Assembly: GCA_964407595.1 (NCBI GenBank)
Contig: CAYOWE010000001.1
Location: forward strand, 16,643-57,936
DNA: 41,294 nt
Reading direction: 5' to 3'
DNA from: an uncultured Candidatus Saccharibacteria bacterium
Lineage (GTDB): Bacteria > Patescibacteriota > Minisyncoccia > Portnoybacterales > UBA2143
Of this stretch, positions 6,535-35,136 are shown piece after piece. The notes under the pieces are model-generated. The model searched no databases and was not told the origin of the DNA. It was given only the letters and a program-made list of their open reading frames with translations. Every line of letters starts with the position of its first letter. Within the stretch, counting starts at the first letter, position 1. Made by a program: the position numbers and the translations under genes.

Positions 6535-6591
6535 GACTATTTTATCGAAATTTATGAGTGTAACGAAATAAATTTCGTTACAAAATTGTCA

Positions 6592-6693
6592 CCCCGCCCT
6601 CTAAGCTGTAACATAATAACAATAATAAAGGTTATTGATAAGTATAATTTACTTTTAACCTTATGCCTTACGGTTAAAGCACAGAGGGCGGGG
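6592..6693 (-). repeat. GC-clamped long hairpin element, copy 1 (rpsQ|rplN spacer)
   Basis: The inverted repeat is ccccgccctct (6592-6602) / agagggcgggg (6683-6693) around an 80-nt AT-rich interior. The interior is homologous to copies 2 to 4. Confidence 0.85.
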
Positions 6694-6726
6694 TAAAGGT
6701 TTGGCAACTAAAAATCCTACGGATTT

Positions 6727-7011
6727 TTAGGCCAAGCCCTTCACTGTCCATTTTTTATCCTTACTTACGGGCCGACATTCTCTAATAATTACCCGGTCAC
6801 CTATTTTAAATTCATTCTTCTCGTCATGCGCTTTATACTTTTTATTAACCCGATATCTTTTTTTATACCGCGGATGTTTTTTTAACCGGGAAACAGAAAC
6901 AACAATGGTTTTATCCATCTTATCACTAATGACCACACCTTTAAGTAGTCGACCTTTTGATTTTCCGCCAGAGGCGGACACGCCTTTGGCAGGTTTTTCC
7001 TCTTTAGTCAT
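6727..7011 (-). CDS. rpsQ: 30S ribosomal protein S17 with short N-terminal extension
   Basis: The 94-aa ORF contains [16 protein letters not shown] and is in operon order. Confidence 0.95.
6961..6993 (-). repeat. Same 33-nt module (encodes [11 protein letters not shown]) in the S17 N-terminal extension
   Basis: The sequence is ttttccgccagaggcggacacgcctttggcagg. Confidence 0.8.
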
Positions 7012-7197: not shown

Positions 7198-7605
7198 TTA
7201 TCTACTAATGAACTTTGTTTTAATCGGTAATTTATGGCTGGCCCGGCGCATGGCTTCTTTAGCCATTTCTTCAGGCACACCATCCATTTCAAAGATAATC
7301 CGGCCTGGTTTTATGGGAACGACATAATGATCAACGCTGCCCTTGCCACCGCCCATAGGCACTTCCACTCCTTTTTTAGTCACTGGTTTATCTGGAAAAA
7401 TCCTAATCCAAATCTTGCCGCCTCGTTGAACATATCTGGTCATGGCCCGGCGGGCTGCTTCAATCTGTCGAGCAGTCAGCCAGCAACCATCCAAGGCCTT
7501 TAAACCATAGGAACCAAAAGCTAAATAGCTCCCCCGAGCTGTCTTTTTTCCTCTGGCCCGTCCTTTCTGCCATTTGCGATGTTTAACTTTTTTTGGAGAT
7601 AACAT
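7198..7605 (-). CDS. rplP: 50S ribosomal protein L16
   Basis: The 135-aa ORF begins [11 protein letters not shown] and contains RMGGGKG-like residues. Confidence 0.97.
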
Positions 7606-7672
7606 ACCAATTTTCTCAACGAGGCAAAGTCGCTTAAGGCGACCGCCCGCCGAGTTGTTAGAAAATTGAGTA

Positions 7673-7771
7673 CCCCGCCCTCTAAGCTATAACCTAGTAA
7701 TAATGAAGGTTATTAATAAGTATAATTTGCTTTTAGCCTTATACCTTGCAGTTAAAGCATAGAGGGCGGGG
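7673..7771 (-). repeat. GC-clamped long hairpin element, copy 2 (rpsC|rplP spacer)
   Basis: The inverted repeat lies at 7673-7683 / 7761-7771. The interior closely matches copy 1. Confidence 0.85.
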
Positions 7772-7827
7772 TTAAGGTTCTGTTACTAAAATTTATTCGC
7801 TATTACTCCAAATTTTAGACAGAATCC

Positions 7828-14227: not shown

Positions 14228-14491
14228 TTAAAACGGTAAATCTTCTACTTTGACTTCCTGATTATCAGTAACTTCTTGATTATCCGGTTCAACCCCTTCG
14301 GTCTCTTCTTTTTCTTCGGCTTTCCATTCATCAATATCCCGATTAACTTTCTCTATCTCTGAAGATGACCGACCAGAACCTGCCTTTTCATAATCTTCCA
14401 GCCTCATAACTAAATAGGTCGGCCGGTTCTTTTCTACTATAATACACTTACCGCCTTCTTTTTGCAATATTTTTTTAATTCTTTCCCACAT
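14228..14491 (-). CDS. Small acidic hypothetical protein (Phd/YefM-like N-terminal pattern, acidic tail ending DLPF)
   Basis: The 87-aa ORF lies between fusA and tuf. Residues GKCIIVEKNRPTYLVMRLEDYEKA resemble the antitoxin-fold beta-strand plus EEY pattern. This is inferred from the pattern only. Confidence 0.55.
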   Translation of the reverse strand: MWERIKKILQKEGGKCIIVEKNRPTYLVMRLEDYEKAGSGRSSSEIEKVNRDIDEWKAEEKEETEGVEPDNQEVTDNQEVKVEDLPF

Positions 14492-14554
14492 GCTAATTTT
14501 CTCAACGAGACAAGCAAGCTTGCTTGCGACATCGAGTTGTTAGAAAATCGAGCA

Positions 14555-14653
14555 CCCAGCCCTCTAAGCTGTAATTTAAATAATAACAGATTACTATAAA
14601 TATGTAAATTACTTTTTGGCTCTATGTTTTAATCTAAGACATAGAGGGCTGGG
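14555..14653 (-). repeat. GC-clamped long hairpin element, copy 3 (fusA|small ORF spacer)
   Basis: The inverted repeat is cccagccctct (14555-14565) / agagggctggg (14643-14653). The flanks are identical to those of copy 2. Confidence 0.8.
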
Positions 14654-14683
14654 TAATGCTTCAGTCACCAAAAATCCGGTGTC

Positions 14684-16819
14684 TTACGACTTGGATTTTT
14701 GGTCTGAACCAATTATCTCTTCAAGCACATTCTTGGGCACTTCAGCATAATAGTCAAATTCCATGGTGAAAGTGGCTCGGCCTTGAGTCATTGACCTTAA
14801 TTGAGTAGCATAGCCAAACATACTAGCCAAAGGCACCTGGGCATCAATTACTTTAACCCGACTGGCCTCTTCTCCTCTGTCTTCCATTTTGGCAATCTTA
14901 CCTCGTTTAGCACTAATGTCACCGATAACATCTCCCATAAACTGCTCCGGAGTAACCACCTCTAATTTCATAACTGGCTCTAATAAAATCAAATCAGCCT
15001 GTTTAACTGCTCCCTGCAAAGCGATTGAACCAGCAATTTTAAAAGCGGCTTCCGAAGAATCTACATCATGATAAGAACCATCGTAAAGGGTGACTTTCAG
15101 GTCAACTAAAGGATAACCGGCTAAGACACCTTTATCCATCGCTTCTTTAACTCCCTTTCCCACAGCCGGAATAAATTCCTGGGGAATGACACCTCCTTTA
15201 ATCGTATTAATAAATTCAAAGCCCTGACCTCGTTCTTGCGGTTCAACTTTCAACCAAACATGACCATATTGGCCATGACCGCCAGTCTGACGAATGTATT
15301 TTCCTTCGGCTTCCGCCATCTCTTTAATTGTTTCCTTGTAAGCTACTTGGGGCTGACCAATATTGGCCCCTACTTTAAATTCCCTCAGCATTCGGTCAAC
15401 AATAACTTCCAGATGTAATTCGCCCATGCCGGAAATAATCGTTTGACCGGTCTCGGTATCACCTTTAATCTGGAAAGTTGGATCTTCATCGGCTAGCCGT
15501 TTTAGGGCCAGACCCATTTTTTCCTGGTCAGCTTTTGTCTTTGGCTCAATAGCAATAGAAATAACTGGTACGGGAAAAGTAATTTTTTCTAAAAGTATCG
15601 GCTGATTAGGATCAGCTAAGGTATCGCCAGTAGTCGTTTCCTTAAGGCCAATAGCTGCTCCGATGTCTCCGGCATAAAATTCTTTTACTTCTTCGCGTTG
15701 AGCCGCATGCATTCTCAAAAGGCGACCGATTCTTTCTTGTTTACCCGTGTTAGAGTTTAGCACATAAGAACCACTCGTCAAGATACCAGAATAAATTCTT
15801 AAATAGGCTAATTGACCAACAAAAGGGTCGGTAGCTATTTTAAAAACCAAAGCCGCCAAAGACGCCTCATCTTTGCTCTCTCTGGTCAATTTCTTTGTTT
15901 CATCTTTAAAGTCAAAACCCTCAACTGACGGCAAGTCAACTGGAGCAGGCAAGTAATCAATAATACCATCTAATAAAAGTTGGATTCCCTTATTTTTTAA
16001 AGCCGAACCGCAAAAAACCGGCACTAATTTATAATTAATAGTTGCTTGACGCAAAACCCGCTTCAAATCTTCTTCTTTTATTTCTTGGCCATCTAAATAT
16101 TTTTCAGTCAATTGGTCATCTTGTTCAACAATTTTTTCCAGCATCTTATTTTGATAATCCTTACTCTCCTCTTTCATTTCTTGAGGAATTTCCTCTTCAA
16201 CAACTTGCTCACCGTGATCGCCAATAAACTTATAGGCCTTCATCTTAACTAAATCAATTATTCCCTGATGTTTTTCTTCTAAGCCAATGGGGATTTGCAG
16301 AACGACCGCTTGAGGAGTTAATCGCTGCCAAATTGAATTTAAACTCTTTTTAAAATCAGCCCCGGTTCTGTCTAATTTGTTAATAAAACAAAGACGCGGC
16401 ACTTTAAATTTATCCGCCTGACGCCAGACCGTTTCCGACTGTGGTTCCACACCGGCTACTCCATCAAAAACAACTACGGCTCCGTCAAGCACTCTTAAGG
16501 AACGCTGCACTTCAACCGTAAAATCAATATGACCGGGCGTATCAATGATGTTAATAAGGTACTCTCCTGGTCCGCTTTCCTTAGATAAATATCCTCGAGC
16601 TGTCCAAAAACAAGTGGTCGCCGCCGCCGTAATAGTAATGCCTCTCTCTTTTTCTTGTTCCATCCAGTCCATGATTGCCTCACCTTCATGAACCTCGCCA
16701 ATTTTATGAGAAATACCAGTATAAAAAAGCACCCGTTCCGTAACGGTGGTCTTACCTGCATCAATATGAGCAATGATGCCGATGTCTCTTGTTTTTTTAA
16801 TTGGATATTGTCTGGGCAT
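14684..16819 (-). CDS. fusA: Elongation factor G
   Basis: The 711-aa ORF contains [15 protein letters not shown] and DTPGHIDF. Confidence 0.97.
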
Positions 16820-34176: not shown

Positions 34177-34551
34177 TCAAAGATTTTCCTCTTTACTGCA
34201 TTTCATGCATAATCTTGCCTCAGGGACAACTTCCAGGCGTTTTGGTTCAATCTTTTTTTGACACTTCTCGCATTTACCATAATCACCTTTTTTAATTTTA
34301 ATTAATGCATCTTCAATATCCTCAAGCCGCAATTCTAAAGTATGTTCAACTGGTAATAAATTTTCGTATCCTTCTATTTCTTCAGCGTTTTCATCTTTAC
34401 GGGAACGATTTAAACCAAAGAAAGGAAAACGGGTCAGCCAATTCCCTTTTAATAGAGGGTCTTTTTTAGCAAAAAATCCGAGATCCTTGATTAATCTCTT
34501 TTTTTCTGCTTCTAATTTCTTTTGGAGATTTTTTTGTAAATCCTTATCCAT
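34177..34551 (-). CDS. DksA/TraR-family C4 zinc-finger protein
   Basis: The 124-aa ORF has a coiled-coil N-terminus and CEKCQKKI...CMKCS. Confidence 0.7.
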   Translation of the reverse strand: MDKDLQKNLQKKLEAEKKRLIKDLGFFAKKDPLLKGNWLTRFPFFGLNRSRKDENAEEIEGYENLLPVEHTLELRLEDIEDALIKIKKGDYGKCEKCQKKIEPKRLEVVPEARLCMKCSKEENL

Positions 34552-34621
34552 GCCAATGTTGTCTAAATTTATAAGCTGAGCTCAATGCGAAGCGTAATGA
34601 ATTTAGCCACAACATTGAGCA

Positions 34622-34719
34622 CCCCGCCCTCTATGCTTTAACTGTAAGGCATAGGGTTAAAAGTAATTTATATTATCAATAACCTTAATAATTGCTAGGT
34701 TACAACTTAGAGGGCGGGG
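34622..34719 (+). repeat. GC-clamped long hairpin element, copy 4 (leader of the dksA-like gene), core inverted
   Basis: The inverted repeat lies at 34622-34632 / 34709-34719. The interior matches the reverse complement of copies 1 and 2. Confidence 0.85.
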
Positions 34720-34764
34720 TAAGGGTTTTCTAACTCCGCATTACTGCGTAGAGAAAGCCCTTTA

Positions 34765-34793
34765 ATTTTAGCACAAAAATATGATGTCAACAA
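34765..34793 (-). promoter_or_regulatory. Extended -10 promoter for the dksA-like gene and its long leader
   Basis: The minus strand reads TTGTTG, 17 nt, then TGcTAAAAT (-10 at 34765-34770). A perfect TTGACA also lies at 34785-34790, but only 14 nt away. Confidence 0.45.
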
Positions 34794-34827
34794 GGTTTTG
34801 TGAAAATAAAAAAAGGCCACTTTAATA

Positions 34828-34856
34828 TTGACTCTTTTAGAAAATTATGATATTAT
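34828..34856 (+). promoter_or_regulatory. Strong plus-strand promoter with no downstream ORF
   Basis: It reads TTGACT (34828-34833), a 17-nt spacer ending in TGa, then TATTAT (34851-34856). Confidence 0.6.
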
Positions 34857-34862
34857 AGAGGG

Positions 34863-35136
34863 ACCTTGTGACCAAAATTAATTACTTCAAGGGCCCAAGG
34901 TCCCTCTTTGTTTTTCTACAATCAAGGCGTTATCACGCTATTTTTTTATAATAATTGCCTCCTGCGCAATAAACAGCCATTTACAGAAAAACATTTTTTA
35001 TCTTCTGCTAATCACCGGTCCTTTTTAGGACCTTGATATAACTGTTAAAAATTAAAGAACTAATAAATTCTATTTGCAATCAGCAAAAGATGTCCCCTGA
35101 TAAGTTTCAGTAAATTTGCGGGGACATTTTTATTTT
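34863..35136 (+). ncRNA. Candidate non-coding transcript bounded by a promoter and a terminator
   Basis: The predicted TSS is ~34863. One hairpin with a U-run lies at 34857-34916 and a second lies at 35090-35136. No ATG-initiated ORF is longer than 3 codons. I recognise no known RNA family. Confidence 0.3.
35090..35136 (+). terminator. Rho-independent terminator (also usable on the minus strand after 35190..35882)
   Basis: The stem pairs atgtcccc with ggggacat (35090-35097 / 35120-35127). It is followed by tttttatttt and preceded by aaaag. Confidence 0.6.

What the first reader, a model, noticed from the sequence alone, without database searches (positions are those of the whole stretch)
34552..34770. 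Copy 4: the core is flipped between co-oriented junctions, as in an invertible DNA segment
The few nucleotides just outside the clamp are not palindromic, and on the + strand they are co-oriented in all copies. The left junctions are aattgagta|CCCC (copy 2), aatcgagca|CCCA (copy 3) and cattgagca|CCCC (copy 4). The right junctions are GGGG|taaaggtt (copy 1), GGGG|ttaaggtt (copy 2) and GGGG|taagggtt (copy 4). In contrast, the 76-nt interior of copy 4 (34633-34708) aligns only with the reverse complement of the other interiors. For example, copy 1 on the + strand reads aaggttattgataagtataatttacttttaaccttatgccttacggttaaagca. The reverse complement of copy 4 reads aaggttattgataatataaattacttttaaccctatgccttacagttaaagca. 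The simplest reading is that the segment between the 11-bp inverted repeats has inverted in place. This could occur by site-specific or hairpin-mediated recombination or by template switching. If inversion is ongoing, this would be a multi-locus flip-flop switch embedded in translation operons and in the leader of a dksA-like regulator. One caveat applies: the outer flanking hairpins are themselves near-palindromic, so only about 8 nt per side inform orientation.
Basis: partly seen in the sequence, partly recalled or inferred. Interest (0 to 1): 0.8.

Follow-up and report, generated by a model that had tools for sequence, protein, structure and literature searches.

The report
Flipped core in CPR hairpin repeat
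One of four copies of a ~200-bp hairpin-forming repeat in this candidate-phyla-radiation bacterium carries its central 76-bp core back to front between two identical 12-bp inverted repeats. The flip is real, but it looks like an evolutionary recombination product of a widespread and apparently undescribed mosaic repeat family, not a working genetic switch.

Summary
Copy 4 (34552-34763) has the same junction motifs and arm layout as copies 1-3: TTGAGCA|clamp...clamp|TAAGGG on the + strand, with the gene-proximal arm ending TTGGC-ATG at the dksA start. Yet its 76-nt core (34633-34708) matches only the reverse complement of the other cores (83-84% against 61-69%). The breakpoints fall inside a perfect 12-bp inverted repeat.

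No switching was seen. All 17 informative metagenome contigs show one orientation at copies 1, 2 and 4. None of 30 window ORFs scanned against Pfam is a recombinase. Cores show no promoter enrichment.

The copies are lineage-specific insertions of a three-hairpin repeat: relatives have empty sites at copies 1, 2 and 4 (copy 3 was not checked). The same clamp, CCCCGCCCTCT-AAGC...GCAT-AGAGGGCGGGG, recurs in most of >113 loci from roughly 60 Patescibacteria and Omnitrophota MAGs, including RNase P RNA helices P3 and P12.

Family-wide, arm polarity follows the host gene (27:4) but core polarity does not (20:16), and 8 of 35 copies are flipped. Arms group by subtype across genomes; cores group by genome. 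The core therefore behaves as a cassette inverted or exchanged by recombination at the clamp. Closest precedent: Neisseria Correia elements. I found no description of this family.

The parts
34552..34763 (-). Copy 4, complete composite element (~212 nt). It forms the whole 5' leader of the dksA-like gene and consists of three directly abutting hairpins.
   Evidence: It is absent from orthologous loci of relatives with 94, 85 and 80% DksA identity, which have only TAAACATAY between the -10 box and ATG. The RNA fold shows three hairpins, z = -4.9.
34552..34621 (-). Copy 4 gene-proximal (downstream) arm, UGCUCAAUGUUGUGG...AACAUUGGC, ending directly at the AUG. This is the 'B' arm subtype.
   Evidence: It is 82-85% identical to the arms of L035 and L059 from other genomes, but only 60-65% identical to window copies 1-3; shuffled 40-mers give a mean of 55% and a maximum of 72%. 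The terminal TTGGC|ATG motif is shown.
34622..34632 (.). Copy 4 left clamp CCCCGCCCTCT. With A34621 it is one arm of the 12-bp inverted repeat.
34633..34708 (.). Copy 4 core, 76 nt, in inverted polarity. The + strand reads ATGC..ACTT, whereas copies 1-3 read AAGC..GCAY on the + strand.
34709..34719 (.). Copy 4 right clamp AGAGGGCGGGG (plus T34720).
34720..34763 (-). Copy 4 promoter-proximal (upstream) arm hairpin AAAGGGCUUUCUC...GAAAACCCUUA.
34765..34790 (-). Conserved extended -10 promoter-like sequence of dksA (TTGACA, 14-nt spacer, TGCTAAAAT), immediately upstream of the insertion.
   Evidence: It is conserved in L204-L207. My reading; the scan tool did not list it because the spacer is 14 nt.
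34177..34551 (-). dksA/traR-type zinc-finger gene downstream of copy 4.
   Evidence: Pfam PF01258, E = 1.4e-9.
6535..6741 (-). Copy 1, between S17 and L14. Clamps 6592-6602/6683-6693, core 6603-6682. Its upstream arm supplies the last four codons and the stop codon of S17.
   Evidence: Relative L124 has S17 and L14 overlapping by ATGA, and S17 aligns only over residues 1-90.
7606..7827 (-). Copy 2. It fills the S3 stop to L16 start spacer. Clamps 7673-7683/7761-7771, core 7684-7760.
   Evidence: Relative L124 has a 13-nt spacer here.
14492..14690 (-). Copy 3, between EF-G and an 87-aa ORF. Clamps 14555-14565/14643-14653 carry the compensated variant (C>A paired with G>T). Core 14566-14642. No orthologous site in a relative was examined for this copy.

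Best explanation
Copy 4 is a recently inserted member of a mosaic, non-coding palindromic repeat family found across Patescibacteria (CPR). Each window copy has three modules: an upstream arm hairpin, a central ~100-nt hairpin, and a downstream arm hairpin that ends at the start codon of the next gene. The base of the central hairpin is the invariant clamp (A)CCCCGCCCUCU-AAGC...GCAU-AGAGGGCGGGG(U).

The two clamp halves are perfect inverted repeats of each other and are identical in every copy. The core between them therefore behaves as a cassette. Recombination, gene conversion or replication template switching at the clamp can invert it in situ, or replace it from another copy in parallel or antiparallel register.

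Copy 4 carries such a cassette in the minority polarity. The event is evolutionary: rare, fixed in the population, and probably inherited from the donor copy that seeded the dksA insertion. It is not a regulated phase switch.

Shown: the inversion relative to the junctions, the breakpoints inside the clamp, the insertion status of copies 1, 2 and 4, the mosaic histories of arms and cores, and a single orientation in all assemblies. Inferred: the recombination mechanism and the timing.
For: 1. The core is inverted while the junctions and the start-codon-abutting arm are canonical.
2. Similarity in the inverted sense runs right up to both clamps and stops there.
3. Across the family, arm polarity follows the host gene 27:4 while core polarity is 20:16. 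Relative to the arms, 27 copies are canonical and 8 are flipped. These include several genomes, plus a second genome (MAG E14_metabat.bin.167) with both layouts.
4. Histories are mosaic. The copy 4 arm is 82-85% identical to arms in two other genomes whose cores are unrelated. Its core is 83-84% identical to the inverted cores of copies 1 and 2, whose arms are unrelated. The arms of L100 and L051 are 95% identical, yet their cores are unrelated and of opposite polarity, and they precede different genes.
5. Empty sites in relatives show that copies 1, 2 and 4 are insertions. Copy 4's insertion is younger than about 4-5% divergence, but its core is 16-17% diverged from copies 1 and 2.
6. All 17 informative contigs show one orientation.
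7. Compensated clamp variants (CCCAGCCC/GGGCTGGG) are consistent with maintenance of the palindrome.
8. Precedents exist. In-situ inversion has been reported for Correia elements, and small inversions in chloroplast DNA are thought to be facilitated by hairpins.
Against: No recombination intermediate and no orthologous locus with two orientations was observed, so the mechanism is inferred.

Among intragenomic pairs with related cores, 12 are co-oriented with their arms. The only 3 flipped pairs all involve copy 4, so direct evidence for a flip at low core divergence rests on this one copy.

All three genomes with the B arm subtype have the same core polarity. This could mean that polarity is selected per subtype rather than random.

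The extreme conservation of the clamp and of the A.A mismatch across phylum-level lineages hints at a dedicated protein partner that I could not identify.

Consensus assemblies cannot exclude a minority orientation.
Confidence: 0.6

Rival explanations
1. Nested insertion. The clamp hairpin (~100 nt) is itself the mobile unit. It integrates separately, in either orientation, into a preferred target between pre-existing arm hairpins. Copy 4 simply received it the other way round.
For: About half of family members lack the GAGCA/TAAAGG arms. The bare hairpin occupies RNase P RNA helices P3 and P12 and abuts a tRNA. In the window, cores 1, 2 and 4 are much more alike than their arms. Clamp hairpins with other interior lengths exist.
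Against: No arms-only (empty) junction was found in 1.49 Mb of fetched loci. The empty sites at dksA and in the S3-L14 region lack arms and hairpin together. No target-site duplication is visible.
Confidence: 0.2
2. Programmed, ongoing site-specific inversion: a phase-variable switch acting on translation operons and the dksA leader.
For: Perfect inverted repeats flank the segment. The clamp is invariant across many lineages, as a recombinase site would be. Both layouts coexist within genomes. Promoter-like sites lie in the sense direction in the cores of copies 1 and 3. Inversion of Correia elements has been reported.
Against: All 17 informative contigs show a single orientation. None of 30 window ORFs scanned against Pfam is a recombinase. 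Promoter-like sites in cores are at the shuffled expectation and unbiased by strand, and there are none in copy 4. Core sequence is not conserved between genomes. From my own knowledge, a 76-bp segment is very short for synapsis by known invertases. In RNase P RNA genes the polarity is constant, 5 of 5.
Confidence: 0.07
3. Whole-element reverse insertion. Copy 4 is entirely inverted, and the apparent co-orientation of the junctions is an artefact of palindromic arms.
For: With the junction 7-mers removed, copy 4's arms align slightly better to the reverse complements of the opposite arms of copies 2 and 3 (z 1.8-2.4). The 9-mer GTTAGAAAA is shared in the inverted sense. Gapped flank scores are similar in both orientations against copy 2.
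Against: The junction motifs are non-palindromic and match the family consensus only when co-oriented: 7/7 for TTGAGCA| and 7/8 for |TAAAGGTT. The arm that ends ..ATTGGC|ATG is on the gene side, as in copies 2 and 3 and most of the family. Copy 4's arm aligns at 82-85% in the co-oriented sense with L035 and L059. Against copy 1, co-orientation is favoured.
Confidence: 0.05
4. Assembly artefact: the core orientation at copy 4 is a misassembly across a repeat.
For: Many contigs break inside the element (L006, L007, L010, L205, L211-L215). The repeat therefore does disturb assembly.
Against: At least three pipelines (ENA MEGAHIT k141, JGI and Logan) on different samples give the identical sequence through the element with 0 mismatches. 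From my own knowledge, a 12-bp inverted repeat is far shorter than a read or the assembly k-mer, so junctions are spanned directly.
Confidence: 0.02

Closest known systems
Correia repeat-enclosed elements (CREE / nemis) of Neisseria
   Same: Both are small (~100-200 bp), non-coding and multi-copy. Both are bounded by inverted repeats, sit next to or between genes and are co-transcribed. The inverted repeats form a long hairpin in RNA; in Neisseria this hairpin is an RNase III substrate. In-situ inversion of the enclosed core has been reported for CREE (PMC10969869, citing Elbeyioglu 2017 and De Gregorio 2002).
   Different: There is no sequence relation. No TA target duplication was seen here. 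The conserved inverted repeat is internal, with further arm hairpins outside it. The core sequence is not conserved between genomes. The element abuts start codons and also occupies helices of RNase P RNA. It spans many phylum-level CPR lineages rather than one genus.
REP / BIME mosaic elements of Enterobacteria
   Same: Both are intergenic palindromic units combined in mosaics in which units occur in either orientation between conserved linker motifs. Both lie inside operons (my own knowledge).
   Different: REP units are 20-40 nt and are associated with RAYT transposases. Here the unit is ~100 nt with an 11-16-bp GC clamp. No RAYT was seen in the window, and association was not testable.
Hairpin-associated small inversions in chloroplast DNA
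   Same: The inverted segment is the interior of a hairpin bounded by inverted repeats, and both orientations recur across lineages (here). The chloroplast inversions are thought to be facilitated by hairpin secondary structures (PMC12371153).
   Different: Chloroplast cases are 4-50 bp at single-copy sites. Here the inverted segment is 76 bp, inside a dispersed repeat whose copies can also donate cores to each other.
Invertons / phase-variable promoter switches (fimS, hin, Bacteroides invertons)
   Same: A segment flanked by short inverted repeats, upstream of genes.
   Different: No population heterogeneity, no recombinase among the ORFs tested and no orientation-dependent promoter were found. 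From my own knowledge, the segment is much shorter than known invertons.
Rickettsia palindromic elements and rRNA intervening sequences
   Same: These are palindromic insertions tolerated inside essential genes of reduced genomes. From my own knowledge, they include RNA genes, and the intervening sequences sit at helix tips.
   Different: Rickettsia palindromic elements mostly lie in frame inside protein-coding genes (PMC10969869). Intervening sequences are known from 23S rRNA. Here the structural-RNA hosts seen are RNase P RNA helices P3 and P12, and excision is untested.

Membership tests
Invertible DNA switch (inverton) | Segment flanked by inverted repeats | tested here: met
   A 12-bp perfect inverted repeat flanks a 76-nt core.
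Invertible DNA switch (inverton) | Both orientations present in one population | tested here: not met
   9 contigs for copy 4 and 8 for copies 1 and 2, from independent samples and pipelines, all show one orientation. This is at consensus level only; reads were not available.
Invertible DNA switch (inverton) | Cognate site-specific recombinase | tested here: not met
   30 ORFs of the 41-kb window were scanned against Pfam and none matches a recombinase or transposase family. The rest of the genome is unseen.
Invertible DNA switch (inverton) | Orientation-dependent functional element (promoter) inside the segment | tested here: not met
   No promoter-like site in copy 4's core. Family cores have 10 and 7 of 70 with a site, against 10.9 expected.
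MITE (for example Correia) | Short, non-coding, multi-copy, with presence/absence polymorphism between relatives | tested here: met
   Four copies in the window. Multiple copies in several MAGs. Empty sites in L124 and L204-L207.
MITE (for example Correia) | Terminal inverted repeats at the element ends | tested here: inconclusive
   The conserved inverted repeat (the clamp) is internal in the window copies, with arm hairpins outside it. It is terminal only in arm-less copies such as those in RNase P RNA.
MITE (for example Correia) | Target-site duplication | tested here: not met
   At dksA the element replaces 9 native nucleotides and no direct repeat flanks it. The same holds for the S3/L16 spacer.
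MITE (for example Correia) | Parent IS or transposase recognising the ends | not testable with these tools
   No ORF-bearing version was found between clamps in the fetched loci. Whole genomes could not be scanned.
REP/BIME | Mosaic of palindromic units in variable relative orientation with separate histories | tested here: met
   Arms and cores group differently, and core polarity varies relative to the arms.
REP/BIME | 20-40-nt REP unit and RAYT association | tested here: not met
   The unit is ~100 nt. None of the 30 window ORFs scanned against Pfam matches a transposase family.
Hairpin-associated small inversion | The inverted segment equals the interior of a hairpin, with breakpoints in the stem repeats; both orientations recur in different lineages | tested here: met
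Integron attC site | R''/R' core sites (RYYYAAC / GTTRRRY) and an adjacent integrase | tested here: not met
   TGTAAC...GTTAAAG in the window cores resembles these sites but is not shared by the family. None of the 30 window ORFs scanned against Pfam matches an integrase family.
Any Rfam RNA family | Covariance-model match | tested here: not met
   Only tRNAs at the gathering threshold. Nothing plausible at E <= 10 over copy 4.

The most novel reading that the evidence does not exclude
The invariant clamp is the crossover site of a dedicated, still unidentified recombination system conserved across CPR bacteria. This system moves, swaps and inverts genome-specific core cassettes among dozens of loci. 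The cassettes sit exactly at translation start sites of housekeeping genes and inside RNase P RNA. That would amount to a hairpin 'shufflon' that tunes expression.
Probability: 0.08. Interest if true: 0.85.

Novelty: new variant of a known kind. Interest (0 to 1): 0.6.

Why it matters
CPR/Patescibacteria genomes are small and tightly packed. Here, ~200-nt structured insertions sit inside ribosomal-protein operons, in the leader of a DksA-type regulator and, in other genomes, inside RNase P RNA helices P3 and P12. All share one 11-16-bp clamp across phylum-level lineages.

If the family is truly undescribed, three things follow:
- It explains some of the 'helix extensions' that make CPR RNase P RNAs hard to detect.
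- It is a source of contig breaks in CPR assemblies.
- It offers a natural system for studying how short perfect inverted repeats drive cassette inversion and exchange.

The arms end precisely at start codons and replace the native ribosome-binding region. This also raises a testable question about how translation starts on these mRNAs.

Tried and rejected
1. Rfam on the window, on copy 4 at E <= 10 and on 18 related loci: no family covers the element. Only RNase P RNA and tRNAs were found as hosts or neighbours.
2. Strand of function from G.U asymmetry. Copy 4 folds 16.7 kcal/mol better on the + strand. This is not general: family-wide the sense strand is slightly better (36 vs 17, p = 0.009), and flipped and canonical copies do not differ. 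Dropped.
3. Core polarity tracking replication direction. GC skew is negative across the whole window, so no origin or terminus lies between the copies. Rejected.
4. Invertible promoter. No enrichment of promoter-like sites.
5. Arms-only 'empty target' junctions. None in 1.49 Mb.
6. An autonomous version with an ORF between clamps. None in the fetched loci; only shorter (27-41 nt) and longer (126-230 nt) interiors.
7. Phage carriage. 0 hits in IMG/VR.
8. Orthologous copies in relatives, to compare orientation. All 80 S17-relative loci lack the clamp pair, and all four dksA relatives examined are empty.
9. Distal-arm alignments within the window are uninformative.
10. Literature searches for CPR palindromic repeats, MITEs, RNase P insertions and the clamp string itself found nothing relevant. 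PMC8172020 only notes large helix extensions in CPR RNase P RNA.

Full report
OBSERVATION. The window holds exactly four copies of a repeat built around the inverted pair CCC[C/A]GCCCTCT ... AGAGGGC[G/T]GGG. The clamps lie at 6592/6683, 7673/7761, 14555/14643 and 34622/34709. A 2-mismatch search finds no further copies. With the flanking A and T, the perfect inverted repeat is 12 bp.

Copy 4's 76-nt core (34633-34708) aligns with the other cores only as its reverse complement. Alignment scores are 52/50/24 inverted against 9/13/1 direct. Identities are 84/83/73% against 61/69/57%, with a shuffle maximum of 65%.

The nucleotides just outside the clamp are co-oriented with the other copies. Matches are 11/16 and 12/16, against 6/16 and 2-4/16 if the whole element were inverted.

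ANATOMY AND CONTEXT. Nearly all genes in the window, and all those flanking the four copies, are on the - strand.
- Copy 1 lies between S17 and L14.
- Copy 2 lies between S3 and L16.
- Copy 3 lies between EF-G and an 87-aa ORF that precedes EF-Tu.
- Copy 4 lies between a conserved extended -10 promoter-like sequence and the start codon of a DksA/TraR-type gene.

In the mRNA sense each copy folds into three directly abutting hairpins: an upstream arm, the clamp hairpin and a downstream arm. The AUG of the next gene follows within 0-3 nt (copy 4 z = -4.9).

THE COPIES ARE INSERTIONS. The closest relative of the ribosomal operon is L124 (S17 80% identical). It has a 13-nt S3-L16 spacer and overlapping S17/L14 genes (ATGA). 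None of 80 S17-relative loci carries the clamp pair. Copy 1 rewrote the last four codons and the stop codon of S17.

At dksA, relatives with 94, 85 and 80% protein identity have only TAAACATAY between the -10 box and the ATG. The flanking DNA of the closest relative is 96% identical to the window. The window has ~212 nt there instead. Copy 4 is therefore a recent insertion of the complete three-hairpin composite. There is no orthologous core in relatives whose orientation could be compared. No orthologous site was examined for copy 3.

A LARGE FAMILY. After discarding GC-rich chance palindromes, 95 hairpins remain. They come from roughly 60 MAG assemblies (my count of contig prefixes). Most are Patescibacteria of many classes, and a few are Omnitrophota.

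Family members share features that the search did not require:
- A-U next to the clamp.
- An invariant A.A mismatch, which gives the hairpin a polarity: AAGC...GCAT.
- G-C and C-G pairs, then covarying pairs.
- An interior whose length peaks at 75-80 nt but whose sequence is not conserved between genomes.

In five genomes the hairpin sits inside RNase P RNA. Rfam aligns the clamp to the native P3 stem in L077 and to the P12 stem in L040. The consensus of both stems is itself C-run/G-run. In one locus the hairpin abuts a tRNA. No Rfam family, no IMG/VR contig and no paper I could find covers it.

POLARITY STATISTICS. About half of the copies carry the arm junction motifs ..AAAATTGAGCA| and |TAAAGGTTTTGT... 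In co-directional gene contexts these arms are strongly polar: 27 of 31 read ..ACAAAACCUUUA|hairpin|UGCUCAAUUUU.. in the mRNA sense. The downstream arm ends ..TT(C/G)GC directly at the start codon. TTCGC occurs 11 times, TTGGC 6 times and other GC-ending variants at least 7 times, out of 37.

Core polarity is 20:16 relative to the genes. Relative to the arms it is 27 canonical against 8 flipped. Flipped copies occur in several genomes. MAG E14_metabat.bin.167, like the window, has both layouts. Copy 4 has canonical arms (TTGAGCA|, |TAAGGG..ATTGGC-ATG) and a flipped core.

MOSAIC HISTORIES. Copy 4's downstream arm is 82-85% identical to the arms of L035 and L059. Both come from other genomes and both are flipped, but their cores are unrelated to copy 4's. 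The same arm is at background similarity (60-65%) to the arms of window copies 1-3, whose cores are 83-84% identical to copy 4's when inverted.

In E14_metabat.bin.167, three copies in front of different genes have downstream arms 90-95% identical. Yet two of the cores are unrelated and of opposite polarity. Arms thus group by subtype across genomes and cores group by genome. The core is a cassette that has been exchanged between copies, and the only shared sequence at its edges is the universal clamp.

Copy 4's core is 16-17% diverged from copies 1 and 2, although its insertion postdates about 4-5% divergence. The inversion therefore most likely predates this insertion and came in with the donor copy.

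IS IT A SWITCH? The tests I could run say no.
- For copy 4, six contigs span the element with 0 mismatches and three partial contigs agree, across ENA, JGI and Logan assemblies of different samples.
- For copies 1 and 2, eight further contigs all have the window orientation.
- None of 30 window ORFs scanned against Pfam matches a recombinase or transposase family.
- Promoter-like sites occur in the cores of copies 1 and 3, but family-wide they are at the shuffled expectation and unbiased by strand. Copy 4's core has none.
- GC skew shows that all copies lie in one replichore.
- Among intragenomic pairs with related cores, 12 are co-oriented with their arms. The only 3 flipped pairs all involve copy 4, so flips are rare relative to core divergence.

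Consensus assemblies cannot exclude a minority orientation. Only read mapping can.

MECHANISM. The best-supported reading is recombination at the clamp, acting over evolutionary time. This could be intramolecular inversion, replication template switching within the hairpin, or gene conversion from another copy in antiparallel register. The two clamp halves are reverse complements of each other, so a donor aligns equally well either way.

Shown: the breakpoints inside the clamp, the mosaic histories, and fixation in the assemblies. Inferred: the enzymology.

Rivals are separate nested insertion of the hairpin (0.2), a programmed switch (0.07), whole-element reversal (0.05) and misassembly (0.02).

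COMPARISON WITH KNOWN SYSTEMS. Functionally the nearest known case is the Correia element of Neisseria. It is similar in size, has inverted repeats that form RNase III-sensitive hairpins in transcripts, sits beside genes, and has been reported to undergo in-situ inversion (PMC10969869). The inversion itself resembles the hairpin-associated small inversions of chloroplast DNA (PMC12371153). The modular make-up resembles BIMEs.

It fails membership tests for invertons: no heterogeneity, no recombinase among the ORFs tested and no promoter. For classical MITEs, no target duplication was seen and the conserved repeat is internal. For attC sites, the defining core sites are absent. I therefore file it as a new variant of the palindromic repeat-element kind.

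The distinctive features are the phylum-spanning invariant clamp, its occupation of RNase P RNA helices, the arms that end exactly at start codons, and the cassette-like core.

LIMITS. Function at the RNA level (processing, translation control) is untested.

Noticed in passing
L077 7583-7685 (RNase P RNA 7212-7704, - strand); L040 1935-2032 (RNase P RNA 1774-2189, - strand); also L045, L057, L080: The same clamp hairpin forms helix P3 (L077, L045, L057) or P12 (L040, L080) of bacterial class A RNase P RNA in five CPR genomes. In all five the RNA reads AAGC..GCAU. L045 has a second, short clamp hairpin about 180 nt downstream. The Rfam consensus stems of P3 and P12 are themselves similar to the clamp.
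   Followed up: partly
window 34552-34556, 7606-7610, 14492-14496; family loci: The gene-proximal arm ends ..AAAAUU(G/C)GC directly at the AUG of the downstream gene in most arm-bearing copies (L11, L20, MreB, MetK, MraZ, FtsX and others). It replaces the native spacer and any Shine-Dalgarno sequence. How translation starts there is unexplained.
   Followed up: partly
window 34800-35135 (- strand), promoter-like site 35161-35132: A ~330-nt conserved, highly structured non-coding region lies between the DUF3352 gene and the dksA promoter (fold z = -6.65). It is preceded by a TTGACA-18-TAAAAT site matching 11/12 with a TG. In an alignment with three relatives, 6 of 90 predicted pairs show compensatory changes. 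There is no Rfam match. This is a candidate unannotated ncRNA.
   Followed up: partly
window 6727-6741: The copy 1 insertion replaced the last four codons and the stop codon of S17. It also abolished the S17/L14 ATGA overlap seen in the relative L124.
   Followed up: yes
window 14228-14491 (- strand): An 87-aa ORF between fusA and tuf has no Pfam hit. By eye, its N-terminus resembles Phd/YefM antitoxins, and its acidic tail ends DLPF, like an SSB C-terminal tip. A protein upstream of the element in L109 also ends DIPF.
   Followed up: no
window 14555-14565/14643-14653; L018 2950; L096 1525-1573; L100 339-470: The compensated clamp variant CCCAGCCCTCT/AGAGGGCTGGG recurs in at least four genomes. 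This suggests a sub-lineage of the clamp rather than independent double mutations. In L100 the left half carries one further mismatch.
   Followed up: no
L006, L007, L010, L205, L211-L215 (contig ends): Many metagenome contigs of this organism and of a close relative end inside or at the edge of the element. The repeat is a practical cause of assembly fragmentation in this lineage.
   Followed up: partly
window 6641-6613 and 14608-14580 (- strand): Promoter-like sites with an extended -10 (9/12 and 10/12 matches) lie inside the cores of copies 1 and 3 and point toward the downstream genes. The homologous positions in copies 2 and 4 are degenerate.
   Followed up: yes
arms of many family members, e.g. 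window 34583-34593 (TGCGAAGCGTA), L056, L072, L095: The motif GAGCGAAGCGA recurs in the arm loops. On the strand antisense to the genes it contains GCGAAGC, which from my own knowledge forms a very stable DNA mini-hairpin. Its significance is unknown.
   Followed up: no
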